Origin: Escherichia coli phage Shin27
Strand: one strand, 5' to 3'
Sequence record: LC788709.1
Length of the DNA stretch: 64,000 nucleotides
Under the pieces are notes generated by a model that made no database searches, was not told the origin of the DNA, and worked only from the letters and a program-made list of their open reading frames with translations. Made by a program: the position numbers and the translations under genes. Shown here piece by piece: positions 9,258 to 61,855 of the stretch. Every line of letters starts with the position of its first letter. Within the stretch, counting starts at the first letter, position 1.

Positions 9258-9290
9258 CATAAAGAAAAGGAGGACATAAAGTCCTCCTCC
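9258..9290 (-). terminator. rho-independent terminator after tape measure gene
   Basis: GC-rich hairpin GGAGGAC-ATAAA-GTCCTCC followed by U-run on minus strand. Confidence 0.5.
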
Positions 9291-9294
9291 AGTA

Positions 9295-12200
9295 TTAAGA
9301 ATTACCAAGTGATTTCAGGGTGGTTCCATTCTCATTAAGAGCCTGTTCTACGGCATCCCTGAAAGCAGCACTGTTGCTCGAAGCAAAGTCTCGGAAGCTA
9401 GCCGCATCCATCGTACTGATGTTCAGCACAATAGGTCTACCCGATGTACCCTTTGAAGATCCTTTGAGTTCATCAGTAGGAGTAGCCTTCATCGGAACCA
9501 TAGGAGTGATTACTTCGGTACCATGTTCACCCATCTGGTAACTAACTCCAGGATACATATTACCACCTTCTGCACGGGGTACGAAAGAGTTAGCATTACC
9601 AATCCCTTGATCTCCTCGAATATAAGAAAGCTCACCTGCGTTAGCCGACATAGAAACGTCTACGTTCTTCTGGCGCTCTCCAAGAGTTAAGTAACCAGCT
9701 GTCTCAGCACCAGAGTCCCCAATAGAAGACATACCAGATGCAGAGGATGCTTGAGCAAGAGCCATAGCACCTGCTAAACCAGCCGCAACCATCAGAGGAA
9801 TAGAGAATGGATACGGAACAGCTGTTGCTGCCTGCATCACCGCTACTGCCGTCTGGATAATGATTTGCTTCTTAGCCGCATCTTGCTGGATCTTGAGCTT
9901 TTCAGCCTCTAACTTCTTGATCTTAGCTTTAGATTGCTCAGATTTACCATCACGTTTCTGTTCTGCTGCAATAGCTGCATCAATAGCACTTACCTGTTGA
10001 CCAACACTATACTGAATCATTGAAGATACAGTTTGCATACCAGCCGCTACTAGAGAAGTGGTATCCAGAGATCCTTGTGAAAACTGGATCATAGCATTAG
10101 TTAGGTTACCCATGCTTTGTGCTACAGCAGTTGCTTCGGAGTTCAGTTCAGACAGCTTAGAAATAGCCTGGTCATAGGATGCCATTCTATTCTGCATATC
10201 CATATTTGCTTTATCATCTCCTTCCAGTCCAGTTGTTGGAGTGTAAACACCACCAACAGAAGAAGTGACTTGCTGCTGCATCTGAGCATCACGTTGCATC
10301 TTAAGCTGTGCTAGAGCTGCCGAAGTTTCTTGGATTTTACGCTTATACTCTTCCTGAGCTTGTGCATTTCCTTTTGTAATTTCCAGTAAACTTTGGTACA
10401 GAGCTTGCTGTTCGGTTAGTCTCTGAGATTCCCCCGTAACGTTTCTGCTAGTCTGTGAAATATTAAGAGCTCTTTCACGTCCAGAAGCCATTTCCCTTTG
10501 CTGATCCTGACGGAATTTCCAGATTTCACGTTCAATTTGTGCCTGAGCTCGTCTTGATTGTTCAGCTTCCTTCTGCTTATCAATCTGCTTGGAGTACCAC
10601 ACATACTTCTCTTTCTCGATAGTCAGTTCAAGGTTCAACTGAGCTAAACGATATTGAGTATCTGTCATAGTACGGTTATTCAGGAGAGCAATTTCACGAT
10701 CAACACCAAGAATCTTATCGGTATAGTCCTTAACCTTCTTCTGAGCTTCCATACCCTGGTTAGTGATCTTGATACGTTCTAGCTGAATCTTAGCTATCTC
10801 ACCTTCGATTGCTTTGTTACCCTTGTTAGTTTCTAGGACACGCTTAAGAGCTGCTTCCTGTTCTTCTAACTGTTGGATTTCCAGACGTCTACCAGCTTCC
10901 TGTGCTTTCTCTTTGTCCTTAGTCTGGCTATACACTTCGGCAATCTTCTGCTGAACTTCTAGCTGATTCTTAGTCTCATTACCAGTTAATTTTACATAAC
11001 CAGCAAGAGCTTGTGAAGCAGTCTTCATCTCACTAAGAGTATTATACCCTAAGTTCAGGCTCTTAACATACTCATCAGCATTTTTACCAGTACCCGCGGA
11101 TAGAGACTCAATAGTCTTAATCGTATCTGATAAGGATGCACTAGTTTTAGCCGCAGTATTAGTATTCTGAGCGATGTTCTGGATATCGTTAGCTAAATCA
11201 CTAGCAGTTTTCTTAGCCTGATCATATGCTTTCTGCTGTTCTGTCAGTCCTTTCAGAGTTGCAGAGTTGAAGTCATAAACCGCATCAGGGTCATTTGCAT
11301 CTTTCTGTAGGTTAATTTGCTTCTGGAATTCTGGATTAGCCTTAGCAGCTGCAGCACCAGCAGCTTGGTATGCCGATTTCCATGCATTAAGATTGCCAGT
11401 TGAATCCTCTACTTCCTTATCAAGACGCTCTACCTGGAGAGCTAATGCAGCAGTATCTGCAATAAATTTCTGGTTTTCTTCAGAAGATCCTATGCGAACT
11501 CCTCCTACTTCAAAACCTCCTGCAGCTAACCCTACCGGTGCACCTTGAGCAACTAAACGAATAGCCCCTGCTGTAGATGCATCTGCTTGCTGCATACGCT
11601 TATCTAGATCAGCTTTTAACTTATTACGCTTTTCTAGAGATTCTTTGTACATATCAAGAGCTTTATTATATCCTTCCTCAGAAGCGGAAAGACTTAAAGC
11701 TACAGCACCAACGTTAGTTGGGTCAATCTGACGGTTAGTTTCTTCCTGTGCTCTAGCAGCAGAGGCCGAGATAGATGCTTGAGAAGTATAGAACACTGCG
11801 TTGATAGAATCAATTACTGGCCCTAAATACTTAGCAGCAGCCTGTTGAACCTTTCTCAGTGCAGCATCAGCATTAGCAGCAAACTGTTCCCAGGGGGTTG
11901 CACGAAGTACATCATCAAGATAGCCGAAACGTTTAGTAGATTCAGCGATAACTGCGTTAGCATATGCTTGTTGCTTCTGGAAAGTAGAGAGACTATTAAC
12001 GTTATATGTAATACCTGTGTTAGCAGCATTTAACTGTTTAACGTAGTCTGCGTAAGCATCGTTAAGACGAATAGTAACACCAAGTTCGTCCAGAAGTTCG
12101 ATTTCTTGTTTAGATACACCCTTGATTACACGGTTAAGTGCATCAGTCATATCAACACCAAGAACAGCAGCAGCACGACGAGCTACTAGACCAAATTTAT

Positions 12201-26868: not shown

Positions 26869-27062
26869 TGGATTGGTTAGGACTTATTACACTTGTAGTA
26901 TGGATTGTCTGGATTGTTGGATACATGACGTCACATCGTAATCGTATACAGAAGCTAGAGGATAAAGTCACCCAACTAAACATTAATATGGATAAGTTAC
27001 TGGACTCCCAACGTAATGATCGGGCGCGTATTCACCAACTTGAGAGGGAATTAGATGTTTAG
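26868..27062 (+). CDS. small membrane protein with coiled-coil tail
   Basis: 64-aa ORF, N-terminal TM, translationally coupled. Confidence 0.4.
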   Translation: MDWLGLITLVVWIVWIVGYMTSHRNRIQKLEDKVTQLNINMDKLLDSQRNDRARIHQLERELDV

Positions 27063-27300
27063 CTTTGTAGCTATCTTCATTATCGGAGTGCTTGCGGGGA
27101 TCTTCGGAACACTCGGGGCGATTAACAAGCATCGTGAATACGTTGCGGGAATATCGCGGGAGCTTTCGGAAAGGGAGCGGAGGTTTGCGGAGAAACGTGC
27201 GGAGTTTGAGCGGGAGTGGTCGGATGGATCTCGGGCGTCGCGGAGGAGATTTCGTATGTCAGAATCAGGAGACAAGCCGGTAGACCGGTGTTCCTCCTAA
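27055..27300 (+). CDS. small membrane protein with charged coiled-coil tail
   Basis: 81-aa ORF, N-terminal TM, R/E-rich C-terminus. Confidence 0.4.
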   Translation: MFSFVAIFIIGVLAGIFGTLGAINKHREYVAGISRELSERERRFAEKRAEFEREWSDGSRASRRRFRMSESGDKPVDRCSS

Positions 27301-27463
27301 GTTAGCGCTAATTACCAATTCTCGAAATCTCATAAGATTACACATGAAGGTGTGCCCAGAGGTTACCTAGATGAGAATGAGTCTCATTACCGCCCCGGTA
27401 CTTAGCAAGCTAATAGTCACACTATGTGATGATAACATAGTGTGACTATTTTATTTTTAATTG

Positions 27464-28198
27464 TTAGGCGACTTTTAATTTATCAATGAATTGTTGCGGG
27501 CTGCAACTATATTCTGCGCGTTCTTCCTCGGTCATACCTTCCCAACACATTTTTAAACGGTCGGCTAGGAATTGATAATCATTATCATCATCTAATGATT
27601 CATCAATAAAGGTTTCACCGATCAATGTTACGCCGATTGATAGGATATCATTAACGGCTTGAGCGTCCAGCGTTTTAAATCCAGCACTTGCCGCCGCCGA
27701 TAATACGCCTTTATGATCATCAATCATCGTAAAATCAGCGTTCGGATATAACTGTTTAAACAGTTCAAAGTAATAGCTTTTGTATACAGCGTCTTTACTA
27801 TGATATATTTCGCTAACCTTATCCGCTTCAAAGTATTTGTGTAATGTATCGCGAGAGAATACGCGGATATTGCTATTTCCGCGCCCTCGCAAGCCTTGTT
27901 TACGCAAATAAAAGTAATCGCTTTTAGACATAAGGCGCGCGGTACAAATAATATTTAAAGTATTTGCATCATTCATACATTGGCGCATATATTCAACCAA
28001 TGGCAATAAAGAATCCTGCATAATTAAATCATGTTTACAGGCTTCGCGTGAATACTTATTTAAATTTAAATTCCCGTTATCATCAAAGCAAGGCGCTACA
28101 CGGTGGAAAGAATTAATGATAGTTCCGTCTAAGTCCCAAATCATAACGCGGGAAATATGCGGGAAAGCGCGGGCAATATTCAAGGTTACTTGATTCAT
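27464..28198 (-). CDS. dmp: HAD-family 5'-deoxyribonucleotidase (T5 Dmp-like)
   Basis: 244-aa ORF with HAD motif I (IWDLDGTI); size and position next to A1-like gene. Confidence 0.65.
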   Translation of the reverse strand: MNQVTLNIARAFPHISRVMIWDLDGTIINSFHRVAPCFDDNGNLNLNKYSREACKHDLIMQDSLLPLVEYMRQCMNDANTLNIICTARLMSKSDYFYLRKQGLRGRGNSNIRVFSRDTLHKYFEADKVSEIYHSKDAVYKSYYFELFKQLYPNADFTMIDDHKGVLSAAASAGFKTLDAQAVNDILSIGVTLIGETFIDESLDDDNDYQFLADRLKMCWEGMTEEERAEYSCSPQQFIDKLKVA

Positions 28199-28285
28199 TT
28201 GTTACATTCTCCATTTAAGGGATTTAGGTTAATTCAATCTTGCCAGCTAATTATATTGGATTAGCTGGCAATGTTCAATTAACTA

Positions 28286-28678
28286 TTAATTAGTGAGGCC
28301 ATACGCTAGCGCGTCACCAATAAAGCTAATATCTTCACCATGTACGCTAGAACGAATCCCCGCGCAAGTGTAAACCATCGCGCTAGCTTCTGGATTGCAG
28401 ACCGGACACGGCTTAACAACTGCAAACGCTAGACCGGATTTAAGCGCATCAATAATAATTGTTTGCACTGTCAAAGTATCAGCGTAAACGCCTTTTGCTT
28501 TCGTATGGCTTGCCACTTTGCCGGTATCATAAGCAAAGGTAGTAACCTGCAAAGCGTCGTTATAATTCAGCAAATCAAAATTAACTTGCCCCGCCTCGAC
28601 GTGATAACGTTCACCATTAGAATAAACTAGAACGATGGAAGAAGTAGCACGATCAAAAGGAATGTTTTGGTTTTTCAT
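28286..28678 (-). CDS. hypothetical pre-early protein
   Basis: 130-aa ORF between dmp-like and A1-like genes. Confidence 0.4.
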   Translation of the reverse strand: MKNQNIPFDRATSSIVLVYSNGERYHVEAGQVNFDLLNYNDALQVTTFAYDTGKVASHTKAKGVYADTLTVQTIIIDALKSGLAFAVVKPCPVCNPEASAMVYTCAGIRSSVHGEDISFIGDALAYGLTN

Positions 28679-28710
28679 GTTTATGACTCCAGATTATTTA
28701 ATTACGGGAT

Positions 28711-28989
28711 TTATTGAAAAAATACATTTAAAGATAAATCAGTTTTACGAAAATATGTTTCGTCGCCGTCTTTCCTTTCTTGATTAAGGTAATCGCCTGT
28801 CATTACCTGAATATGATCTTTTTCGAAAAAGATCATATTTTCGCCAATATTACTATCCCATACGGCATACATTCCCGCGTACATTCCACGGGTAACTAAA
28901 TAAACGCAACTATCAAAAGACATTTCAGACCATGCAATATCTTCTAAACAATTGCTATCAGGGATAGATATATTAATTTTACTAGCCAT
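28711..28989 (-). CDS. hypothetical pre-early protein
   Basis: 92-aa ORF. Confidence 0.4.
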   Translation of the reverse strand: MASKINISIPDSNCLEDIAWSEMSFDSCVYLVTRGMYAGMYAVWDSNIGENMIFFEKDHIQVMTGDYLNQERKDGDETYFRKTDLSLNVFFQ

Positions 28990-29041
28990 TTAATAAACCT
29001 TTTATTAATGGCGGTATATTTCAACCGCCGATTAAATTTAA

Positions 29042-30706
29042 TTATGCAAAGAATTTACCGTTTTTGAAATCAATCAAAGTACGTTGCCCGTTTGCATAGG
29101 TAATTAAATGCGTTTGCGTCCAGCTTGACGCGCCCACGTTGTAGCCCATATCAAGGGAACCAGCAACGCCAGCGGTATAAACGCCGCCGTAAATGCTAGC
29201 CGTGTGAGTGTGACCAGTGTTAAGGCGTCCCAACTTTTTAAACTGCTTAGGATTGCCCCGACTGCCGTTAATGCCATTGTGACCATGTACGCCGCATTCA
29301 ATGCCAGCGATTTTAAAGGACTGGTCAGTAGTCAAAAAAATGGCGTTAAATTCGCATCCTGCAACGTTTCTAAGCGCATAATCTAACACGTTAAAGGTAT
29401 CATCCTTTTCAGCAATAGCGGCGTAAATCGCAGCGTTTAGACGGTGATACAGTTCCGCGTTTGCGGGATCATCTTTAATGTTTGCGTTACGATCATCTAA
29501 CCAGCGGGATAATGCTAAATCATGGTTAGATTCCACAATGATTGTTTGACTAAAATCACGTTCCATAGATTCTAATACGCGTCCAGTATCGATAAGATCA
29601 TCAATAACTTTATCACGTCCGGCGGCGTATTGTTTCGCAAGGAATACACCACTAGCGCGGTTATGATGGTTACGCGATGTAAAATCATGCACGTCATGAA
29701 TAAATTGATATTTCGGTTTAAGAATATCAAGCAAGCTGTTTTCACTAGCCCATGAAGCGACGGCGCAATCATCATCTAATTTTTCGGCGTGAATATCGCC
29801 ATATTGCAAGCCTAGAACATGATCGGACGTTTCAAAACATCCGGTAGGCATAGCGCAAACATTCAAATCATAGAACATTCCGCTTTCATCCATTGTTTCA
29901 ATCTGGCGAGCATAAAATTCGCCGTCGTCGTCGAACTCTACCAGCAAAGCGCCATAATTATGTAAAGCCTCAGCTTTTTGACCTGCTTTCTGCTGAATGT
30001 AGTTTTTAAGCGTAGCCGTTCCGGTTGAATACATACGGCACACTACTTCACCTTTTAACGCTGGCACACTTTCAGCGGTAATTTTAGCGTGACCAATTGC
30101 CAGACCTTCAATATTTAAAGCCGTGGCGGTTTCTGCGAATCCTGAAAGCGGGTAATCTGCCGTTGGTAAAACGTTAATTTCAGCCATGAAAGCAAAGCGG
30201 CGGTTATTTAAAAATACGTTTTTATCACAAACATATTTATCAAATGCGGGATCGTATTTAATACCGTTTGCCCCTTCCCCGTTCTGAAATCCGTTTTTGT
30301 TGTAAATGAATTTGCTAACAAGTAATTCAGCGCCGCAATATTCAGCGAATTTTTCCAGACTTGCTAAAAAGTTTTTATGCGGGAAAGTATTATTTTGAAT
30401 CGACGTTAGAATAAAACGGCGACCGGACTTAACTTCCCATTGCTCAACGGTGCTAGAAACAATTCCCGCCGCCTCTGGGCGATCATCGTTTTTAATCGCC
30501 TTTTCGGCTTTTGCCGCTTTCGGTTTCGCTGGTTTATTTGCTTCCAGCCAGTCACAAATTGCGGTCGAATGTTTCGGCGTACCATAAACAGCTTTTGAAA
30601 TATCGTCGCAAACTTCCAATTTAGTAGCGCGTAAACGCTTACCGTAGAAGTTAAAATCTGCGGCCATTTTCAAAATTTGAGCTTGTTTTTCTGCGGAAAT
30701 ATTCAT
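29042..30706 (-). CDS. A1: metallophosphoesterase, T5 A1-like (host DNA degradation / second-step transfer)
   Basis: 554-aa ORF with calcineurin-like motifs (GDIHAE, NHD, GHTHT); size matches T5 A1 as recalled. Confidence 0.65.
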   Translation of the reverse strand: MNISAEKQAQILKMAADFNFYGKRLRATKLEVCDDISKAVYGTPKHSTAICDWLEANKPAKPKAAKAEKAIKNDDRPEAAGIVSSTVEQWEVKSGRRFILTSIQNNTFPHKNFLASLEKFAEYCGAELLVSKFIYNKNGFQNGEGANGIKYDPAFDKYVCDKNVFLNNRRFAFMAEINVLPTADYPLSGFAETATALNIEGLAIGHAKITAESVPALKGEVVCRMYSTGTATLKNYIQQKAGQKAEALHNYGALLVEFDDDGEFYARQIETMDESGMFYDLNVCAMPTGCFETSDHVLGLQYGDIHAEKLDDDCAVASWASENSLLDILKPKYQFIHDVHDFTSRNHHNRASGVFLAKQYAAGRDKVIDDLIDTGRVLESMERDFSQTIIVESNHDLALSRWLDDRNANIKDDPANAELYHRLNAAIYAAIAEKDDTFNVLDYALRNVAGCEFNAIFLTTDQSFKIAGIECGVHGHNGINGSRGNPKQFKKLGRLNTGHTHTASIYGGVYTAGVAGSLDMGYNVGASSWTQTHLITYANGQRTLIDFKNGKFFA

Positions 30707-30814
30707 AACTAAATCAACTCCTATAAAGGGATAAATATTAATACTGGCAATATTGCCAAATATAACGCCTTGCCTGAAGTGAGGACAATTTAAAAGGCGT
30801 TATAATTTGCAATA

Positions 30815-31060
30815 TTATTCTAGAATTGGCATAAGACTAGAACTAAAACCGCAACTAATAGCCAGCGTTAAAAATATAATCGCTAGATATTTTTGTTTAT
30901 TAGCTTGACGTTTAAACATATCAGCGGCATAAGCTGAATTAATGCCGATAATAGAGATTATATATTTGCCGTAATTAAATATAAATATAGCGGCAACTAT
31001 AAATAAACCTAAAATAAACGCTTCACTAGGGAAGAAAATCATTTTAATAACTCCGGTCAA
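30815..31060 (-). CDS. small membrane protein
   Basis: 81-aa ORF with two predicted TM helices. Confidence 0.4.
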   Translation of the reverse strand: MTGVIKMIFFPSEAFILGLFIVAAIFIFNYGKYIISIIGINSAYAADMFKRQANKQKYLAIIFLTLAISCGFSSSLMPILE

Positions 31061-31100
31061 AGGGAAATTATAGCGGGGAATATTCCCCGCTAATTAGAAT

Positions 31101-31517
31101 TTATTCACCTGCGGCCTGTTTTACTTCCTCCGCTACGCCTAACAATTGCGCTACGGCGTCCAGCGTTTCCAGTTTAGCACTTTCAAGGCTTGCCAGATCG
31201 TCGGCATCTTTTACGATACCTGAATCAATGGCGTGTTTAGCGATGACGCGCACATAGTGAGCTTTACGAATTGAGCTACCGCCGCCAACTTTGCGAGGTT
31301 TATCGCTTTTCTGATAGGCTTTTGCGCTTGTCAGTTTAGAACGTACAGACACCGGACTAGCAGCACCAACGGCGGCGGCAATTTCTTTCAGGCCGTCACT
31401 GTTAGCAAATTCACTTCCGCTTTTAGCGACCATTTCAGAATACATAGAAACAGCTTTTTCGGTGTTTTCTTCGTTCCAAGAGAATTTTGCGGTTTTTTCG
31501 GTTTTAACGTTAGACAT
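31101..31517 (-). CDS. hypothetical pre-early protein (possible A2 equivalent by size and position)
   Basis: 138-aa ORF immediately upstream of A1-like gene. Confidence 0.35.
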   Translation of the reverse strand: MSNVKTEKTAKFSWNEENTEKAVSMYSEMVAKSGSEFANSDGLKEIAAAVGAASPVSVRSKLTSAKAYQKSDKPRKVGGGSSIRKAHYVRVIAKHAIDSGIVKDADDLASLESAKLETLDAVAQLLGVAEEVKQAAGE

Positions 31518-31805
31518 AATTTAATACTCCATTCAATTATTAATTAAGGGATTATGATTAACTAAATGTTAATCGCTATATATTCTATTAGCTAGAATAT
31601 ATATAACGGAAACATTTTATTTTTATTTCCAGTTTCAAGCGGTTTATTAATTCCCGAATATATTTATATTCTCACCTTACCCGGCTTGCCAGAGAATTAA
31701 TAAGGCAACATTGTATTTATACGCTGTTTATTATTCCGTTCACGCTAGGAATATTTCGAGTTATCTTTATTGCCTAACTAAGCATGATATGTAAGGCGCA
31801 TTAAT

Positions 31806-32057
31806 TTATGCGATAGCTTGCCATTTATCATCTTTCTGAATGATTTTTACAACGTCGCCAGATTTAACACGGACGTTATAAATAGGCTTGCCGTGGTTAC
31901 TGCGTTCCGTTTCCGCATAGACCGCTTCAATCTTATCAAAGGGATCAAGCGCCGCACCTTTAATACGTTCAGCTTTTCCAGTTAATTCATCCGTTTTAGT
32001 AACGAAAGGAATAAAAACGGATTGACCTACTTTCGGTGCGGTGATAACGTTTTGCAT
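31806..32057 (-). CDS. hypothetical protein
   Basis: 83-aa ORF with GGAG RBS. Confidence 0.4.
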   Translation of the reverse strand: MQNVITAPKVGQSVFIPFVTKTDELTGKAERIKGAALDPFDKIEAVYAETERSNHGKPIYNVRVKSGDVVKIIQKDDKWQAIA

Positions 32058-32223
32058 TTTTAATACTCCGGTTTATTGGGGGATTATTCCACAATAGCGC
32101 CTCGATACTTTGAAACGCTATTAGATTATAATCCGCTAGGAGTTAGCCTAAACATTACCGTTTTTCCAAATTGTTAAAGAGCAGTTACTACGGGGAACAT
32201 CTTAAAACCTATCGGCTAGCGTG

Positions 32224-32433
32224 TCAATCGTTTTTTAAACTTTTTTCGATTTGATGGGAGTTATATAAATCAATCATTATATTACGCCACACCATTTCCA
32301 GCCCTTGTTGCTTGCCTTTCTTGTATTGCTTGAATCTGTATTTTACAGATCGTTGCGCTACTGTCAACAAATTTTTTGTTCTGCTATCAAGCGACTTGAT
32401 AGGCTTGCCAGTGATCAAAAGCGTTTGTTTCAT
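32224..32433 (-). CDS. hypothetical basic protein
   Basis: 69-aa ORF with AAGGA RBS, Lys/Arg-rich. Confidence 0.35.
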   Translation of the reverse strand: MKQTLLITGKPIKSLDSRTKNLLTVAQRSVKYRFKQYKKGKQQGLEMVWRNIMIDLYNSHQIEKSLKND

Positions 32434-32840
32434 ATCGTCGATTCCTTATAATATCTAAGTTTACCGCCGATAGGCTTTAAGATGTTCCCTAATTTTTAAA
32501 GAGCATGGCAGGGTTTTGAAAGGTCAAACAGACTGTCAATCGCTGTTATCCCCGCCGTGTAGTTCGTCATTGCCGCCCTACGTGATAAATAATAGGAGAA
32601 TACCGAGAAGGGCGCAAGCGTATTTTTGTAAAGAAACGTAAAGAAAACCACTACTCGCAAACGTCCAGCGGCGCATTAAATTTAATGAAACGGGCGCGCG
32701 AATAACACCAAAACAACCATTTTAGCAAGTAATTTTTTTCATTTATATTTGCTTTGCCATACTTGACAAAATCTAAAATCCTCGTGGTGAGGTTTTCTCG
32801 GTGTATCCCTTATGATTGCCTATCCTTTCCTTTGAGGCGC

Positions 32841-32867
32841 TTAGAATGCGTTACAGAGCGTTTTAGA
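32841..32867. repeat. 27-bp exact direct repeat, copy 1
   Basis: TTAGAATGCGTTACAGAGCGTTTTAGA identical to 37085-37111. Confidence 0.8.
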
Positions 32868-33185
32868 CCCTGTTAATAACTTATACAAAAAGCAAAAATG
32901 AAATTTAATGAGTTATCCACTTGATTTTTCAAAAAAGTATTTTCTGCTGTTATTTTTCATTGACAAATAAGTTTAGACGTGCATTTATTGGTTAGCAGAC
33001 TAATAATCGCTAGGAGGATAATCACGCTGGTGGATTGTAACAGCCGAAACAGTTAGCGGACTATTAATACTTTAAAAACCTATTAGCCAACTAACTATTT
33101 CATAATATATAATATACACATAAATTAATGAGAAATAATAACTATGAGAAACTATCGGGCTAAGTGAGAACCACTATCATTTAGG

Positions 33186-33255
33186 TTATGCACAAAGCTA
33201 TCCACAGCACAAAATAACTTGACGCAATAGGCGACGTTTTGGCGACTTATCCACA
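33186..33255 (+). promoter_or_regulatory. DnaA-box cluster
   Basis: TTATGCACA 33186-33194, cTATCCACA 33198-33206, TTATCCACA 33247-33255. Confidence 0.5.
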
Positions 33256-33295
33256 GACTTATATACAGGTTATCCTACTGTATAAATATACAGGG
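33241..33295. repeat. inverted-repeat arm L (DnaA box + LexA-like box)
   Basis: TTATCCACA at 33247-33255 and TACTGTATAAATATACAG at 33276-33293; reverse-complement partner at 37141-37205. Confidence 0.65.
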
Positions 33296-33543
33296 TAGAA
33301 TGGTAGCAGTAACAACCGCAATCAAATTTAAGCGGCCTAGAACGCGCTACACGGCGTTTTCTCACTGCTACCCTTATTATAATAAAGCCTTGTGTACGCT
33401 TACAGAGAGCTAGAAATAGAAAACGCGCGATTATCATAAAAACGGGCAGTAGGCAAGGAATAAAAAACCTTTTCTTTTTTTCTTGCCCCTAGCGAACAAT
33501 TATCTATATCATTCACTCACCGATTAACGAGGGAGACAAAGAA

Positions 33544-34545
33544 ATGTCTACTGTAAGAATTGCAGTACCAGCAAACGCAACTATTATTAAAGGTAGTTTG
33601 CGCAACCTGCTAGATGGTAGTAGTGCGGCAAGTATTCAGCACACCGCCGCAATGGTTGAAAAAATTCACGAGGATATTTTAGATAATAATGATACTCATT
33701 ATTCAGTCGATGATTTCACGCTATTACTAGACCAGACAAGGGCGCTAGTAATTTTCAACCGTGATTATCACATTTTCCGTAATAGTCAGGGAACTGATAT
33801 TGATTTTATCATTGTTGGTTATAGTGAGTCTCATAGTGGTTACATTGCGCGATTATATAACGTGCAAGAAAAAGAGCAGGTAACAGCAACAAAAGTAAAT
33901 AATATCAGATTGGATAGTGTCGGATCGTTATTAAATAGTATCTGGCGTGAATTATCATCCAGTTATAAAGGTGCTGATAGTGACGCAATCGAAACAACTG
34001 GCGTATTGTGCTTTGAACGCGCTAGCGGTAACATGTTGATCCCTAACGATTATTTAGAGTATGGGAATGAATCAAACGTTGCAAACGCTGGATTTACACT
34101 TTTACCGCTTGACAATGTAGCAAAACAGGCTGTAAACTCTCAAACTTCAAGCGCAAATGCGCAAACTACTGAAAATAAAGGAAATATTATGTCTAAAGTA
34201 TCTTCTATCGTTGCCGCTAATAAATCCGCCGTTGTTAACGCTGCTAAACTGGAAGCGGGTAAAATTGCACTGACTCAAATCACAAAAGTAGCGGCGAAAA
34301 AAGCGCCGTTTATGATTAAAGGTTATATCGATACGCCGATCGGTCGCGTAGTGATCGCTAACCTGTTAAGCGTAGCGGTTGACCAGTACGCCCCGACTAA
34401 TGCGAAAGCGAAAGCGGTAGCAGGCGCGGCAATGGAAGCGGCAATGCTGGAAATGGTACAGAGTTTCAATATTGCGGAAATGATCGATGAAATGGTAAAA
34501 GGTATTGACATTTCTACTTTTACCACTAACACCGAAAGTGAGTAG
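33544..34545 (+). CDS. hypothetical protein, first gene of plus-strand pre-early cassette
   Basis: 333-aa ORF with GAGGGAG RBS; Ala/Lys-rich C-terminal half; no recognisable motif. Confidence 0.55.
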   Translation: MSTVRIAVPANATIIKGSLRNLLDGSSAASIQHTAAMVEKIHEDILDNNDTHYSVDDFTLLLDQTRALVIFNRDYHIFRNSQGTDIDFIIVGYSESHSGYIARLYNVQEKEQVTATKVNNIRLDSVGSLLNSIWRELSSSYKGADSDAIETTGVLCFERASGNMLIPNDYLEYGNESNVANAGFTLLPLDNVAKQAVNSQTSSANAQTTENKGNIMSKVSSIVAANKSAVVNAAKLEAGKIALTQITKVAAKKAPFMIKGYIDTPIGRVVIANLLSVAVDQYAPTNAKAKAVAGAAMEAAMLEMVQSFNIAEMIDEMVKGIDISTFTTNTESE

Positions 34546-34612
34546 TAATAACTAGCGGGGATTATTTCCCCGCGTTACTATTTCCCTGTTAATTGTTAGG
34601 AGACTACTTATT

Positions 34613-34921
34613 ATGCAACTGAATCAAATCATGTTGACGCAATTAGCCGAAAAAATGCCGAATAGCCCCCATGTTAATTATTCGGACGATCAAAGCAATA
34701 TTCCTATATGGGAAAAACAAGGCCGTCCCTTTTTATGGGAACATGTAGAAAGCGCGAATAATTATCATGCTTTCTTTGATCGTGGTTATGGCTGGCTATG
34801 TATTTTTGTAGACGAAACTTTGCTGGATTATGGAATGGATGAAATAGTCCGTGATGACGTAATTTTCTTAAATAAAGGATTTTACAGTGTAGCAAATTCT
34901 CTTTATTTCCCTGCTAATTAA
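34613..34921 (+). CDS. hypothetical protein
   Basis: 102-aa ORF with AGGAG RBS. Confidence 0.5.
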   Translation: MQLNQIMLTQLAEKMPNSPHVNYSDDQSNIPIWEKQGRPFLWEHVESANNYHAFFDRGYGWLCIFVDETLLDYGMDEIVRDDVIFLNKGFYSVANSLYFPAN

Positions 34922-34934
34922 TAGGAGGCTAGTT

Positions 34935-35429
34935 ATGTCAGAAGAAAAATATGGCTTTTCACTAGAAAGTGTGAATGAAGCTAAACACGATATGATAGTT
35001 TTAGTTGATTGTCATACTGGCTATTGCGGGGAAGGCTGGACGGAGGAACATTTTGTTCCCGCTGGCTGTGATCTGGACGCTTTCGCAAACGAACACGCAT
35101 ATGATAATGCTTCTCGTTTCGGTAGTGATGGGGAAGAAGATGAAGAAACAGGGGAATGGATTGAAAATGATAATGTTTATGCGAGTATTTATCATTATCA
35201 ATTGAGTAAATCCGGTATTTATGTAAATGGCGGCGATCCTATTAATACCGTTATGAAACTAATTATTAAACACGGTGGCGCGGAAATAATTGGTAACAAG
35301 GCGTTATTATATGCAAATCGATTAAAACAGCTTGTTTATATTCCTGATAATTCCCGTTGGGATGAATATGCCGTTTTACAGAAAGAACTAAAACGCTGTT
35401 TCGGTGTGGAAGCATTAGAAATAGTCTAA
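34935..35429 (+). CDS. hypothetical acidic protein (DNA-mimic / anti-restriction candidate)
   Basis: 164-aa ORF with TAGGAGG RBS; strongly acidic segment DGEEDEETGEWIENDN. Confidence 0.5.
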   Translation: MSEEKYGFSLESVNEAKHDMIVLVDCHTGYCGEGWTEEHFVPAGCDLDAFANEHAYDNASRFGSDGEEDEETGEWIENDNVYASIYHYQLSKSGIYVNGGDPINTVMKLIIKHGGAEIIGNKALLYANRLKQLVYIPDNSRWDEYAVLQKELKRCFGVEALEIV

Positions 35430-35536
35430 TGTAAAGTTTTGTAAAGGTCGCCTATTATGGCGACCTTTTTTGTTATAATGCCTTTACACCGAAACGGTGG
35501 GTTGAAAATTTTCCCTGATTTCTAGGAGGCGTTAAA

Positions 35537-35764
35537 ATGGTACATTCATCATCTTCTGCAATTTTTAACGGTATGGAATGGGTATCCGTTCCCGCTATTG
35601 TCAGCGTTATGGTTTCTGAGTTCGGCATAGGTAAAACTTATGTTACCATTCAGGGGCTTTACGACAATGACAAGATTGACCAGCAAACCGCCGGATTTTT
35701 GCTGGATGAATTGAAAGCTAACCATTGCACTAAAAAGCAAGCGGCAAAAATTGTTTTAATGTAA
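35537..35764 (+). CDS. hypothetical protein
   Basis: 75-aa ORF with TAGGAGG RBS. Confidence 0.45.
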   Translation: MVHSSSSAIFNGMEWVSVPAIVSVMVSEFGIGKTYVTIQGLYDNDKIDQQTAGFLLDELKANHCTKKQAAKIVLM

Positions 35765-35810
35765 TTAATAAAGGGGGTATATTATCCCCTAATTTCTAGG
35801 AGCTAATAAA

Positions 35811-35960
35811 ATGGTTATTTTTCGATCTATTCTAGCTAGTATCTTGGGCGCTATTTTATCACTGTTTGTAATAGCTTTCGGCGTTAACGTGGTTATTATT
35901 GGAGCAGGTATCGCTGGGTTTTCTTACTTGTTAGGCTGTATGACTGGTAAAGGGGAATAA
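35811..35960 (+). CDS. small membrane peptide
   Basis: 49-aa hydrophobic ORF with TAGGAG RBS; below ORF-track size cutoff. Confidence 0.35.
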   Translation: MVIFRSILASILGAILSLFVIAFGVNVVIIGAGIAGFSYLLGCMTGKGE

Positions 35961-35962
35961 AA

Positions 35963-36175
35963 ATGTTAAAGAATGTTTCCCTTGCCCGTTCTAAAGGTTT
36001 TAAGCTGGTGGATGTTAACACGTTCGAGCGTCCAGATTGTAAAATCGAATATGTAGCACGCAACAAAAACGCTTTCCGTGTTACTGAAAAGAAATTTGAC
36101 AAGCGCGGAAATTTGGTAGCCGAAACGGTTAAACACTTTGCTACTTTTTACGCTGCGTTTCGTGGGGTATTATGA
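35963..36175 (+). CDS. hypothetical protein
   Basis: 70-aa ORF tightly packed after preceding ORF. Confidence 0.45.
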   Translation: MLKNVSLARSKGFKLVDVNTFERPDCKIEYVARNKNAFRVTEKKFDKRGNLVAETVKHFATFYAAFRGVL

Positions 36176-36273
36176 GATCCTTATATATTGCTCTAGCGTT
36201 TGCTACCGTTGGCGTTGTTTGCTCATTCGCTGCATTTGTTCTAAAAATGTACCTGATATTTTCCCAGCTTTAG
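36172..36273 (+). CDS. small membrane peptide
   Basis: 33-aa hydrophobic ORF overlapping previous stop (ATGA). Confidence 0.25.
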   Translation: MRSLYIALAFATVGVVCSFAAFVLKMYLIFSQL

Positions 36274-36284
36274 GAGCTTGACAA

Positions 36285-36632
36285 ATGGTTATTTATGAGG
36301 GTAATCGCTTTGTTACTAATTGCCGTCCGGCATTATTAGCAAACTATTTAAATCAGCTTTCCCCTGTTTATAAAGGCGTGGTTAACATCTATGAAGGCAA
36401 AGCGCACTATAGAATTAATGCCGTTGTCGCTCGCGAGCTTGCCTTTCAGTTTCTTACTTTTAACTCATGCGATATTCAGGTTATGGGTGAGTCTTTGATT
36501 GCAGAAAATGAAGATGAATTTATTAACATTTTCCGCAAAGTATGTACAGAGCGCCTGATTATGAAAGGCGCATATATTCAATCAACCGCTGATAGTATTG
36601 AAACAGCGTTTCGAAAAATTGTAAATGAATAG
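36285..36632 (+). CDS. hypothetical protein
   Basis: 115-aa ORF with TAGGAG RBS. Confidence 0.5.
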   Translation: MVIYEGNRFVTNCRPALLANYLNQLSPVYKGVVNIYEGKAHYRINAVVARELAFQFLTFNSCDIQVMGESLIAENEDEFINIFRKVCTERLIMKGAYIQSTADSIETAFRKIVNE

Positions 36633-36755
36633 CTGGTGGCGTAAAACGCAATCCCATAAATCTAATAATACCGCTGGGAAACATTCCCAGCGTTTACGAT
36701 TTGGGAACGGCTTCACAATGTTAATAATAATCATTCTCATTCTAGGAGCAATGGC

Positions 36756-36995
36756 ATGGCTGTAAGAATTTTACGATATGTAGAACGTAAAGAAACCGAT
36801 ATTATGCAGCATCATTTAACTGATGGGCAATACGCGCAATTTTTAGAAATGCAGAAAAGCGGAGCTAGTACGGCGGCGCTAGGGGCGTGGATCAATTCAG
36901 TTTCAACGTGTACGCATTTTGATTCATACGGGTATACGCCAGCCGAAACCGTCCAGATCTTTGACGACTACGAGAAGGAATACATAGCAGACTAA
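36756..36995 (+). CDS. hypothetical protein, last gene of cassette
   Basis: 79-aa ORF with TAGGAG RBS. Confidence 0.45.
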   Translation: MAVRILRYVERKETDIMQHHLTDGQYAQFLEMQKSGASTAALGAWINSVSTCTHFDSYGYTPAETVQIFDDYEKEYIAD

Positions 36996-37084
36996 TAATA
37001 GCGGGGCGCAACTATCGGCCCCGCCTTTTCTGCCTGCAAACAAATTTCCCCTTATTAAAATACCTCCTCCAAAAATAAACGCGT

Positions 37085-37111
37085 TAGAATGCGTTACAGA
37101 GCGTTTTAGAG
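37085..37111. repeat. 27-bp exact direct repeat, copy 2
   Basis: identical to 32841-32867. Confidence 0.8.
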
Positions 37112-37140
37112 CTATATTAGAGTTATTCACTACGTAGGAA

Positions 37141-37205
37141 TACTGTATATTTATACAGTAGAATAACCTGTGGATAAGTCAGTGGATAACGCCTCAAAAT
37201 CGCTA
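37141..37205. repeat. inverted-repeat arm R (LexA-like box + DnaA boxes)
   Basis: TACTGTATATTTATACAGTA at 37141-37160, TGTGGATAA at 37169-37177. Confidence 0.65.
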
Positions 37206-37251
37206 GGATTTTGTCAAGTCAAATCGTGCTGTTAATAAACCTGTGGATAAC
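37169..37251 (-). promoter_or_regulatory. DnaA-box cluster
   Basis: reverse complement of TTATCCACA at 37169-37177 and 37243-37251, near-match at 37181-37189. Confidence 0.5.
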
Positions 37252-37269
37252 TTAAATAGCAGTGTTTCT

Positions 37270-37420
37270 CACTTCGCTTTCTAAATGCGAATCATTCTCA
37301 TTATGCGACTCATTCGTATTCAATTCTGTAAATGATAATCATTCCCATTCCACTTTCTAAATGCGAGTAGTTCTCATTCGCATTCAACTTCTCAAATGCG
37401 AATCAATCTCATTATCAGTT
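37270..37420. repeat. three copies of ~25-bp motif (CTTTCTAAATGCGAATCATTCTCATT family)
   Basis: copies near 37277, 37344, 37385. Confidence 0.6.
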
Positions 37421-37463
37421 GCATTTCGGCAGGCAGGGCATTTTCTATTTGCCCTGCGCTTTT

Positions 37464-38065
37464 GTGCAAATCCGACATCTGCCCCCACGGATTACGTGCC
37501 AGCGTGCATGTGCGAATCCGACAATTTTTGGTAGTGTGCAAATCCGATGGGAAATATTTTTTATATGTGCGAATCCGACAATGAATTTTCCTAAAAACTC
37601 CAGCAATCCGCAACTGCGATGCAATCCAGCTGGATTTACTAGAGTATGCGCAAATCCGACATGAGTTTATTTGTGCAAAACCGACAAGATTTTTGTGACT
37701 TCGATGAGAGGGTGTGTGATTGTGAGGGTTTGGGGAGAAGTGCGAATCCGATGAGATTTTGGGAGGAACTACGGAAGGAGCAGCGGTGATGGTGCTTTAG
37801 CACCGGTTTGCTGCATTTTTGAGGATAATGCGGGATGTTTTGGCTAGAATTGAGATTAGGGGAGATAAAGCGAAATTTTATTAGCAAAATGGGGCAAAAT
37901 CGCTTGACAAGTGAAAATTCCTGTGGCTCTAAAAAACTCAGGCAAATATGGGCCTTCGGCCCGAAATAATGCTGCTATTTTCAGTGTTCCTAAAAACTTT
38001 GGAGACTCCTATCAATGTGCAAATCCGACCATAAATTTCTAGAAACACAGTGTGCAAATCCGATA
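37464..38065. repeat. dispersed array of ~10 copies of 14-bp motif GTGCRAATCCGAYR
   Basis: copies at 37464, 37510, 37538, 37567, 37648, 37673, 37740, 38017, 38052, degenerate at ~37603; irregular spacing. Confidence 0.75.
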
Positions 38066-38230
38066 GCAATTTCCAGAAATGTGTTTTGGAAAAATGTCTC
38101 CTAGAAATAACCGCCCTCCCTATAACCGCCCTGTATTAAACCGCCTATTGCTGGAGTTTCTAGGAACATGAAAACCGCCTGAGTTGGCGAGAGTTTTCCT
38201 AGAAACTTAGGAGTCTACTAGAAAGTGTTG
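38030..38230. repeat. cluster of TTCTAGAA-type palindromes and AACCGCC repeats
   Basis: TTTCTAGAAAC, TCCTAGAAA, TTTCTAGGAAC, TTCCTAGAAAC plus four AACCGCC copies at 38100-38170. Confidence 0.6.
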
Positions 38231-61624: not shown

Positions 61625-61855
61625 TTACTTATTGCGTAGGCCACCTGGAGGGTTCAAGCCCCACGGCTGACAAAGAAGTTTGCGAGACTTCTCTTAAACG
61701 CCAGAATAGACCCGCCGATCTATCGGAACCTACTCAATAAGTAAACTTTCGTTTACCTACACCTACCTGGTCGGGAGGATTTTCAGCGACTAGAACCGGC
61801 CGGAAACTCATCGCCTTGTTTATCTAGGAGTCCGTTCTCTAGGAAGCAGAAACCT
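61625..61855 (-). ncRNA. ORF-free ~230-nt segment in tRNA array (candidate stable small RNA)
   Basis: no ORF, between tRNA-Gly(GCC) and promoter 61578-61606. Confidence 0.2.

What the first reader, a model, noticed from the sequence alone, without database searches (positions are those of the whole stretch)
32841..32867. Exact 27-bp direct repeat 4.2 kb apart flanking the cassette
TTAGAATGCGTTACAGAGCGTTTTAGA occurs identically at 32841 and 37085. Exact repeats of this length across 4 kb are unlikely by chance. They could mediate deletion or duplication of the cassette by homologous recombination, or serve as paired protein-binding sites.
Basis: seen in the sequence. Interest (0 to 1): 0.5.

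Follow-up and report, generated by a model that had tools for sequence, protein, structure and literature searches.

The report
Conserved repeat element in T5-like phage
The exact 27-base repeat is real, but it is two copies of a short non-coding element that T5-like phages keep in three places around the DNA that enters the cell first, and it is most likely a protein-binding site, not a device for losing the gene cassette.

Summary
None are expected by chance.

The window is a T5-like (Epseptimavirus-type) phage. Both copies lie in the non-coding repeat regions of its terminal-repeat, first-step-transfer (FST) region.

Each copy is three 10-bp units in helical phase: GCGTTAGAAT, GCGTTACAGA, GCGTTTTAGA. 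A third, diverged copy sits inverted at 33326-33363. The three sites match T5's annotated inverted repeats B and B' plus an unannotated site just left of the injection-stop inverted repeat.

The cassette itself is bracketed by a 135-bp inverted repeat that carries DnaA boxes and a LexA-box-like palindrome.

The element recurs, with the same conserved positions, in over 500 phage genomes, and in recognisable form in the one Proteus and one Vibrio relative read. The exact pair also occurs in published phages such as chee130_1.

No genome shows the deletion or duplication junction that recombination between the copies would make. One natural cassette-less phage keeps all three sites and both arms; its junction lies at a different 8-bp microhomology.

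Best reading: a conserved protein-binding array. The binder is unknown, and phage protein A2 is only a candidate.

The parts
32841..32867 (+). Site 1: the 27-mer, made of three helically phased 10-bp units (GCGCTTAGAAT / GCGTTACAGA / GCGTTTTAGA). It is the positional and sequence homolog of T5 'inverted repeat B' in Repeat Region 1.
   Evidence: Exact match. Unit register. Homology to T5 5285-5310.
32871..32889 (.). DnaA-box-like pair directly 3' of site 1: TGTTAATAA, which is the reverse complement of TTATTAACA (called a DnaA* box by Davison), followed by TTATACAAA.
   Evidence: Sequence read. The conserved block CCTGTTAATAACTTATACAA follows site 1 in all Epseptimavirus-type sequences. DnaA* is defined.
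33159..33293 (.). Left arm of the large inverted repeat (T5 IRC-spacer-IRD), with DnaA boxes at 33186 and 33247 and a LexA-box-like palindrome at 33276-33295.
   Evidence: T5 nomenclature.
33326..33363 (-). Site 2: an inverted, diverged copy of the element. Read on the - strand it is GAGAAAACGC CGTGTAGCG CGTTCTAGGC CGCTTAAATT. It is the homolog of T5 'inverted repeat B''.
   Evidence: (family D4). It is the only other place in the window with the unit GCGTTNNAGR, apart from one isolated hit.
33544..36995 (+). Variable pre-early gene cassette of eight ORFs. The functions are unknown, except that 35963-36175 resembles T5.015 (Ung-dependent AP-site nickase) and 33544-34545 is DUF7566.
   Evidence: The cassette is dispensable: it is absent in phagemcphageface, and T5 hegG-017 can be deleted (bioRxiv 10.64898/2026.04.02.716235).
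37001..37030 (+). Terminator-like hairpin with a T run closing the cassette (GCGGGGC ... GCCCCGC CTTTTCT); proposed homolog of T5 palindrome C (a positional inference, not aligned).
   Evidence: Sequence read. T5 annotation.
37084..37110 (+). Site 3: the second exact 27-mer (GCGTTAGAAT / GCGTTACAGA / GCGTTTTAGA with the preceding GCG), 33 bp left of the right arm of the inverted repeat. It is the homolog of T5 9273-9299, which is not annotated as a repeat in T5.
37111..37131 (+). Conserved continuation of site 3: a degenerate fourth unit GCTATATTAGA, then the DnaA-box-like TTATTCACT at 37123-37131.
   Evidence: It reads TTATTCACA in Klebsiella phage vB_Kpn_3 site 2.
37143..37277 (.). Right arm of the large inverted repeat (T5 IRD'-spacer-IRC', the proposed core of the injection stop signal), with DnaA boxes at 37169 and 37242 and a LexA-box-like palindrome at 37141-37160.
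31101..31517 (-). Gene A2, an essential pre-early DNA-binding protein. It is the candidate binder of the arrays by inference only.
   Evidence: The model has two three-helix modules resembling Myb, GcrA and homeodomain DNA-binding domains.

Best explanation

Anatomy:
- It is an array of three 10-bp units (consensus CGnTnnAG in a 10-nt register), so all units face the same side of the helix.
- It is present at three sites per terminal repeat.
- Site 1 and site 3 (the exact pair) are in direct orientation, and each precedes, in the direction of DNA entry, one arm of the DnaA-box / LexA-box-like inverted repeat.
- Site 2 is the inverted partner of site 3 and forms the inner extension of that inverted repeat.

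Proposed mechanism: the arrays are bound cooperatively by a sequence-specific protein. The essential pre-early DNA-binding protein A2 is the best phage candidate; a conserved host protein is the alternative. Together with the adjacent DnaA-type boxes, the arrays would organise the entering DNA, either for injection arrest and restart or for control of pre-early genes.

The exact identity of the two copies reflects selection for the same recognition sequence, helped by occasional sequence exchange between the sites. It is not a recent duplication scar.

Shown: the anatomy, the conservation, the retention of the sites without the cassette, and the absence of recombinant junctions. Inferred: that a protein binds, which protein it is, and the role in injection.
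For: 1. Unit structure and restriction to these sites. GCGTTNNAGR occurs in the 64-kb window only at the three sites, plus one isolated hit.
2. Position-specific conservation. In 24 distinct site-3 sequences and 35 site-1/2 sequences, CG, T and AG of each unit are kept, while positions 3, 5, 6, 9 and 10 of the middle unit vary.
3. Breadth. The 111-nt site-3 context is found in 527 phage records, 509 of them at 80% coverage or more. The 57-nt site-1 context is found in 383 records, 84 of them at 99% identity or more. This holds although the cassette between the sites has little homology among types (Davison).
4. Depth. The array sits next to the CTGTATAAATATACAG palindrome in Proteus phage Stubb (A2 only 43% identical). 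In Vibrio phage D414 (A2 42% identical) two inverted copies occur, one of them about 30 nt from a DnaA box that follows a CTGT-N8-ACAG palindrome.
5. Sites 2 and 3 extend the inverted repeat. Both lie 61 nt from palindrome D in T5. In Klebsiella phage vB_Kpn_3 the two sites share their flanks within a 176-nt inverted repeat.
6. The natural cassette-less phage phagemcphageface retains all three sites and both arms.
8. Rhoades's two FST bands in T5, at about 5.8 kb and about 9.6 kb, fall near the two site-plus-arm composites (Davison).
Against: - No binding data exist for any protein at this sequence. The BF23 paper states that experimental studies of these repeats are lacking.
- The sequences compared are phylogenetically related, so conservation counts overstate independent support.
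- One IMG/VR genome (L021) lacks the first one and a half units of site 3.
- An engineered T5 deleted from hegG to gene 017 is viable, with smaller plaques. That interval spans the annotated positions of site 2 and the left arm, but the exact end points were not in the text read. If they were removed, not every copy is essential in the laboratory.
- The spacing between the array and the palindrome is not the same in Stubb, Vibrio phage D414 and the coliphages.
Confidence: 0.55

Rival explanations
1. Recombination substrate. The two exact 27-bp direct repeats exist, or matter, because homologous recombination between them deletes or duplicates the 4.2-kb segment made of the left inverted-repeat arm plus the cassette.
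For: 27 bp of perfect identity is about the minimum length for efficient RecA-type recombination (my own knowledge). The product would probably be viable: T5 deleted from hegG to gene 017, roughly the interval between site 1 and site 3, grows with smaller plaques, and the cassette is naturally absent in phagemcphageface. Cassette length between the arms varies from 1.6 to 4.1 kb among relatives.
Against: None of about 540 related records covers at least 80% of the deletion-junction or duplication-junction query. The only cassette-less genome keeps both copies 564 bp apart, and its end points lie at the microhomology CCCTTATT just inside sites 2 and 3. The pair is not exact in many relatives that have the same architecture: L004 has 3 differences, S114 has 5, and T5 is much diverged. 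The conservation is position-specific rather than plain identity. The only rearrangement actually seen among relatives is inversion of the cassette between the inverted arms.
Confidence: 0.08
2. Passive relic. The copies are left-overs of an old duplication of the repeat region, the same event that made the large inverted repeat. They are kept similar by gene conversion and have no function of their own.
For: Sites 2 and 3 are physically part of the extended inverted repeat. There are signs of exchange between sites. Site 1 differs between close relatives by three adjacent bases (ATCGCTT versus ATGCGTT), and the window's version matches site 3 exactly. Site 1 of L027/L033 carries a right half resembling site 2 of L022/L006. 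One genome has a partial deletion of site 3.
Against: Conservation extends to Proteus and Vibrio phages whose A2 proteins are only 42-43% identical, which is far beyond what drift plus conversion would keep in non-coding DNA. The variable and conserved positions repeat with a 10-nt period. The sites are retained when the cassette is lost.
Confidence: 0.2
3. Transcript-level signal. The element acts as a terminator, attenuator or structured RNA at the edges of the pre-early operons.
For: The simple scan flags a weak terminator-like hairpin on the - strand at 37095-37078 (AACGC...GCGTT followed by a T-rich tail), formed by the first unit and the preceding AACGC.
Against: Folding of both strands of both copies gives -3 to -5.2 kcal/mol, with z-scores of -0.16 to -1.29 against shuffles. 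Site 1 lacks the AACGC partner. There is no Rfam match near the sites at E-value 1 or below. A 10-bp direct-repeat organisation is not what a hairpin signal needs.
Confidence: 0.04

Closest known systems
T5 'inverted repeat B / B'' (Wang et al. annotation of AY587007, 5285-5310 and 6184-6209; Repeat Regions 1 and 2 of Davison)
   Same: Same positions: between hdi/009 and IRC for B, and just right of IRD for B'. Same core sequence, GCGTTTTAGG followed by C(C/G)GCTTA. Same non-coding FST setting.
   Different: In T5 the annotated pair is inverted (site 1 versus site 2) and has two clear units. Here the striking pair is direct (site 1 versus site 3), has three units and is exact. The T5 homolog of site 3 (9273-9299) is not annotated as a repeat at all. 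No function has been assigned to IRB or IRB'.
T5 injection stop signal region (iss), with the DnaA-box inverted repeats IRC-spacer-IRD and IRD'-spacer-IRC' (Heusterspreute 1987; Davison bioRxiv 10.1101/866236)
   Same: Site 3 lies inside the stretch annotated as iss in AY543070 (9140-10149) and 33 bp from IRD'. Sites 2 and 3 extend that inverted repeat. The level of conservation across T5-like phages is the same.
   Different: The 27-mer is not one of the eight DnaA boxes and does not match the DnaA 9-mer. It is not discussed in the main text or legends of the preprint that I could read (its figures and supplements are not held; the 2015 review was not available). Whether it takes part in injection arrest is untested.
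Arrays of helically phased direct-repeat binding sites, such as plasmid or phage iterons, MetJ boxes and OmpR/PhoB-type operators (named from general knowledge)
   Same: Three or four short units spaced about 10 bp apart in the same orientation, with conserved contact positions and variable spacers, placed next to DnaA boxes as in several plasmid origins.
   Different: There is no replication initiator gene or origin here. According to Davison, T5 origins map mid-genome. No binder is known, and the units match none of the consensus sequences I could recall.
Short direct repeats that mediate deletions
   Same: Perfect direct repeats a few kilobases apart that bracket dispensable DNA.
   Different: No recombinant product was found in about 540 genomes. 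The one natural cassette deletion used a different 8-bp microhomology.

Membership tests
T5 IRB/IRB' repeat family (FST Repeat Regions 1 and 2) | Site in the non-coding region between the hdi/009 genes and IRC, containing the core GCGTTTTAG(G/A) | tested here: met
   Window 32841-32867 aligns in position and core sequence with T5 5273-5310.
T5 IRB/IRB' repeat family (FST Repeat Regions 1 and 2) | Inverted partner immediately to the right of IRD | tested here: met
   Window 33326-33363 (- strand) reads ...GCGTTCTAGGCCGCTTAAAT, homologous to T5 IRB' ...GCGTTTTAGGCCGCTTATTT. It is more diverged from the 27-mer, with 8 mismatches in direct register.
T5 injection stop signal (iss) | Lies within the conserved untranslated Repeat Region 3, left of the FST shear point and the 7.9% nick | tested here: met
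   Site 3 is homologous to T5 9273-9299 (AY587007), inside the iss feature of AY543070. The nick-site homolog GCCCTGCGC lies about 350 bp further right in the window.
T5 injection stop signal (iss) | Cis-acting requirement for arrest of DNA transfer | not testable with these tools
   This needs mutant phages and FST length assays. The literature says functional studies are lacking.
Recombination-generated deletion or duplication substrate | Relatives carry the recombinant junction: a single hybrid copy without the cassette, or a tandem duplication | tested here: not met
   No record covers at least 80% of either chimeric junction query. The cassette-less phagemcphageface keeps both copies.
DnaA box / LexA box | Match to TTATNCACA or to CTGT-N8-ACAG | tested here: not met
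   The 27-mer contains neither. The consensus DnaA boxes and the two LexA-like palindromes of the window lie in the adjacent inverted-repeat arms.
Intrinsic terminator / structured RNA | Stable hairpin (plus a T run), or a match to a curated RNA family | tested here: not met
   Fold energies are not different from shuffles. There is no Rfam match at the sites.
Replication-origin iterons | Adjacent initiator gene, or a mapped origin | not tested
   No Rep-type gene was seen in the ORF and family scans of 30-40.5 kb. T5 origins are reported mid-genome (Davison). Origin activity was not tested.

The most novel reading that the evidence does not exclude
The 10-bp-phased arrays are the specific docking sites of the essential pre-early protein A2, whose model shows two Myb-like three-helix modules. 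Together with the neighbouring DnaA boxes and the near-perfect LexA-box palindrome, they would form a tripartite nucleoprotein lock, conserved from coliphages to Vibrio phages, that arrests DNA transfer and is then released by A1 and A2. That would make them the long-sought molecular core of the T5 injection stop signal.
Probability: 0.15. Interest if true: 0.7.

Novelty: new member of a known kind. Interest (0 to 1): 0.33.

Why it matters
How T5 stops and restarts DNA injection has been open since the 1960s, and the repeats of the stop region have been catalogued but never dissected experimentally.

This work shows that one small element has a defined 10-bp unit grammar. It occurs at three fixed places beside the DnaA-box arms, survives loss of the cassette, and was found in the Proteus and Vibrio relatives that were read. 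That gives a concrete, short target for binding assays with A2, A1 and host factors, and for scrambling mutations.

For the finding as written, the value is mainly corrective. The repeat is part of a known, family-wide repeat architecture and not a device for cassette excision.

Tried and rejected
- Chance: rejected. 0 matches in 100 shuffles.
- Unique to this genome: rejected. The exact pair is present in chee130_1 at 5505 and 8081. At least 84 records have an identical site-1 context, and most of the top 60 have a second place in the record.
- Recent duplication with longer homology: rejected. Identity stops at both edges.
- Hairpin or terminator: rejected.
- Known RNA family: none.
- DnaA or LexA site: the 27-mer itself matches neither.
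- T5 nick site: it lies elsewhere, about 350 bp to the right.
- Coding: only spurious 40-aa and 68-aa ORFs overlap the copies.
- Promoter element: the consensus scan puts no sigma-70-like site on either copy, and the characterised T5 pre-early promoters lie more than 100 bp away from the homologous sites.
- Host-factor consensus sequences recalled from memory (IHF, Fis, ArcA, OmpR, MetJ, TrpR, Lrp, RcsAB) gave no convincing, conserved match. This was not a formal test.
- A regex for phased units in distant phages failed on the window's own sites and was dropped.
- The Davison 2015 review and the supplements of the 2020 preprint could not be obtained.
- The exact 27-mer in IMG/VR gave only one contig, the site 3 of L004.

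Full report
**Observation.** TTAGAATGCGTTACAGAGCGTTTTAGA occurs exactly twice in the window, at 32841-32867 and 37084-37110, both on the + strand. There are no further matches with up to 3 mismatches, and none in 100 dinucleotide-preserving shuffles. The bases on either side differ immediately, so this is a 27-bp island of identity and not the core of a longer duplication.

**Where this is.**
- A 6.5-kb stretch around the finding is 92-94% identical to Salmonella and Escherichia phages of the genus Epseptimavirus, which are T5-like (Demerecviridae).
- Annotated relatives and T5 itself identify the genes to the left: A1 (29042-30706, - strand), A2 (31101-31517, -), the T5.007 homolog (31806-32057, -) and the hdi/T5.008 homolog (32224-32433, -).
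- Next comes about 1 kb of non-coding DNA (32500-33540).
- Then comes a + strand cassette of eight small pre-early ORFs (33544-36995). Their functions are unknown apart from a T5.015-like nickase.
- A terminator-like hairpin follows (37001-37030), and then the long non-coding region that T5 workers call Repeat Region 3 or the injection stop signal.
- By homology to the annotated left terminal repeat of phage chee130_1, the terminal repeat spans roughly 27456-37720. Both copies therefore lie in the DNA that enters the cell first, and a packaged genome with two terminal repeats would carry four copies. That last point is an inference.

**Anatomy of the element.**
- The 27-mer is three tandem 10-bp units: with the preceding GCG, site 3 reads GCGTTAGAAT GCGTTACAGA GCGTTTTAGA. 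A degenerate fourth unit and a DnaA-box-like TTATTCACT follow.
- Site 1 reads GCGCTTAGAAT GCGTTACAGA GCGTTTTAGA. It is followed directly by TGTTAATAA, the reverse complement of a 'DnaA*' box in Davison's terms, and then TTATACAAA.
- The unit GCGTTNNAGR occurs in the whole 64-kb window only at these two sites, at a third place (33336, - strand), and once in isolation at 61692.
- The third place is a diverged, inverted copy (33326-33363, - strand) just to the right of the left arm of a 135-bp inverted repeat (33159-33293 / 37143-37277).
- That inverted repeat holds 4 of the 5 consensus DnaA boxes of the window. It also holds the window's only two LexA-box look-alikes (37141-37160, 1 mismatch to TACTGTATATATATACAGTA; 33276-33295, 3 mismatches).
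- It is the homolog of T5 IRC-spacer-IRD / IRD'-spacer-IRC', which Davison proposes as the core of the injection stop signal.
- So the cassette is bracketed by inverted repeats, not by the direct repeat. The order is: site 1 (+), 292 bp, left arm, site 2 (-), cassette, terminator, site 3 (+), 33 bp, right arm.

**Relation to T5.**
- In T5 (AY587007), site 1 is the annotated 'inverted repeat B' (5285-5310) and site 2 is 'inverted repeat B'' (6184-6209).
- The homolog of site 3 (9273-9299, TTAGAATGCGATCTAGGACGTTTTAGG) carries no annotation.
- In T5, sites 2 and 3 align in register and both lie 61 nt from palindrome D. They are therefore the inner extension of the large inverted repeat.
- Klebsiella phage vB_Kpn_3 shows this directly. 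Its site 2 (- strand) has the same flanks as site 3, within a 176-nt inverted repeat.

**Conservation.**
- I oriented 40 loci from IMG/VR that encode A2, together with GenBank records, and extracted the three sites from each.
- All three sites are present in essentially all of them. One genome (L021) lacks the first one and a half units of site 3.
- In the 10-nt register, CG, T and AG of each unit are conserved, while positions 3, 5, 6, 9 and 10 of the middle unit vary. These sequences are related to one another, so the counts are not independent.
- The 111-nt context of site 3 is found in 527 GenBank phage records, and the 57-nt context of site 1 in 383. By contrast, the cassette between them is reported to be poorly conserved among types.
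- The element reaches far beyond the close relatives. In Proteus phage Stubb (A2 43% identical) the array CGCCTAGAGT CGATTCTAGGA CGTTCTAGGG abuts the palindrome TACTGTATAAATATACAGTG.
- In Vibrio phage D414 (A2 42% identical) there are two inverted copies of CTGTAAGC(G/C)ATTCTAAGCGGTTTTAG. One lies about 30 nt from a DnaA box that follows a CTGTATGGATATACAG palindrome.

**Is the exact pair special?** No.
- chee130_1 (MF431736.1) has the same exact 27-mer at 5505 and 8081, only 2.6 kb apart.
- At least 84 records have the site 1 context 100% identical, and 50 of the 60 listed have a second matching place.
- In other relatives the pair is imperfect: IrmaTschudi has 1 difference, vB_Kpn_3 has 2, L004 and phagemcphageface have 3, and S114 has 5. 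In T5-type phages site 1 is clearly diverged from site 3.
- Close relatives differ at site 1 by three adjacent bases (ATCGCTT versus ATGCGTT). Some site 1 versions carry a right half like other phages' site 2. This suggests occasional exchange between the sites but does not prove it.

**Test of the recombination idea.**
- I built the two junctions that recombination between the copies would produce and searched both in the GenBank phage collection. No record covers 80% or more of either.
- The search did turn up one phage in which sites 1 and 3 lie within 700 bp of each other: Salmonella phage phagemcphageface (105,405 bp).
- Joining the ends of that circularly permuted record and aligning it to the window shows that window 33379-37056, the whole cassette with its promoter region and terminator, is absent.
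- Site 1, the left arm, site 2, site 3 and the right arm are all present. The junction falls in an 8-bp sequence (CCCTTATT) that is shared just inside site 2 and site 3.
- So a cassette-less variant exists, but it was not made through the 27-mers, and it keeps them.
- Independently, an engineered T5 lacking hegG through gene 017 is viable with smaller plaques (bioRxiv 10.64898/2026.04.02.716235). Recombination between the repeats would therefore probably give a viable product. The exact end points of that deletion were not in the text I could read.
- The rearrangement that is actually seen among relatives is inversion. In vB_Kpn_3 and Torridgeon the cassette genes run in the same direction as A2, and a piece homologous to window 34205-34557 is inverted. 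This is what exchange between the inverted arms would give, and it agrees with Davison's remark on his Type 2 and 3 phages.

**Other readings tested.**
- Single-strand folding of either strand of either copy is no better than shuffled sequence.
- There is no Rfam match near the sites.
- The consensus scans place no promoter on the copies, and only a weak terminator-like hairpin at the left edge of site 3 on the - strand.
- The homolog of the T5 7.9% nick site lies about 350 bp to the right.

**Mechanism.**
- Four features together are the signature of a protein-binding array: a 10-bp phased unit grammar, fixed placement beside DnaA-type boxes, deep conservation, and retention when the cassette is lost. 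This is inference, because no binding has been shown.
- Among FST-encoded proteins, only a few are found across the family (A1, A2, dmp, 007). A2 is essential for second-step transfer and binds double-stranded DNA as a dimer.
- Tandem helix-turn-helix modules reading adjacent 10-bp units would fit the array. However, the scores are weak and this remains a lead only. A conserved host protein is equally possible.
- Davison notes two FST bands in old T5 experiments, at about 5.8 and 9.6 kb. These fall near the two composites of a + oriented array followed by an inverted-repeat arm. That is compatible with a role in arrest of DNA entry.

**Verdict.**
- The 'mediates deletion or duplication' half finds no support in about 540 genomes and is contradicted by the one natural cassette loss.
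- The element belongs to the known repeat architecture of the T5 first-step-transfer region (the IRB/IRB' family). The additions here, which I did not find in the literature available to me, are the third site, the unit grammar, the neighbouring DnaA-like boxes and the conservation depth.

Noticed in passing
window 37141-37160 and 33276-33295: The palindrome at the inner end of each arm of the big inverted repeat (T5 'palindrome D') is a near-perfect LexA (SOS) box. TACTGTATATTTATACAGTA has 1 mismatch to the E. coli consensus (recalled from memory), and TACTGTATAAATATACAGGG has 3. These are the only two matches in 64 kb, with 0.01 expected. The palindrome is also present in T5 and Proteus phage Stubb, and as CTGTATGGATATACAG in Vibrio phage D414. 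LexA is not mentioned in Davison's preprint, and no paper linking it to T5 pre-early DNA was found.
   Followed up: partly
Salmonella phage phagemcphageface MT074447.1 (L049 + L050); corresponds to window 33379-37056: This is a natural T5-like phage that lacks the whole pre-early cassette (about 3.7 kb). The two DnaA-box arms are left only about 170 bp apart as a near-palindrome. The junction lies at the 8-bp microhomology CCCTTATT.
   Followed up: yes
L048 (Klebsiella phage vB_Kpn_3) 9144-9494 versus window 34205-34557; L053 (Torridgeon): The cassette between the inverted-repeat arms is in the opposite orientation in these Klebsiella phages. This is consistent with inversion by recombination between the arms.
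   Followed up: partly
window 32193-32216 / 32466-32489: A 24-nt, 96% complementary inverted repeat (analog of T5 IRA/IRA') tightly brackets the small hdi-like gene (DUF7416, 32224-32433, - strand). The homologs of the strong T5 promoters P-H22 and P-D/E20 lie within and beside that gene.
   Followed up: no
window 37462-38069: About 7-9 copies of an iteron-like repeat, TGTGC(A/G)AATCCGACA (T5 'direct repeat D'), fill the non-coding region to the right of the inverted repeat. The homolog of the T5 7.9% nick site (GCCCTGCGC, about 37449-37458) sits just before the first copy.
   Followed up: no
window 31101-31517 (- strand): The A2 protein model has two three-helix modules joined by a conserved basic glycine-rich linker (KPRKVGGGSS.RKAHY). 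It has its own Pfam family (PF26822) and no relative with a solved structure by sequence.
   Followed up: partly
between site 1 and the left arm (window 32868-33158); T5 5411-5929; Salmonella phage bux L051 2394-2678: This spacer is where T5 carries the HNH endonuclease hegG and where phage bux carries another putative endonuclease. The window has no gene there. It looks like a recurrent insertion spot for homing endonucleases.
   Followed up: no
window 27000-27456 and 38529 onward: Tail and receptor-blocking genes run directly into the terminal-repeat sequence, and early genes follow it. The source assembly therefore seems to carry one collapsed copy of the terminal repeat (a circular permutation) and not the true linear ends.
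   Followed up: no
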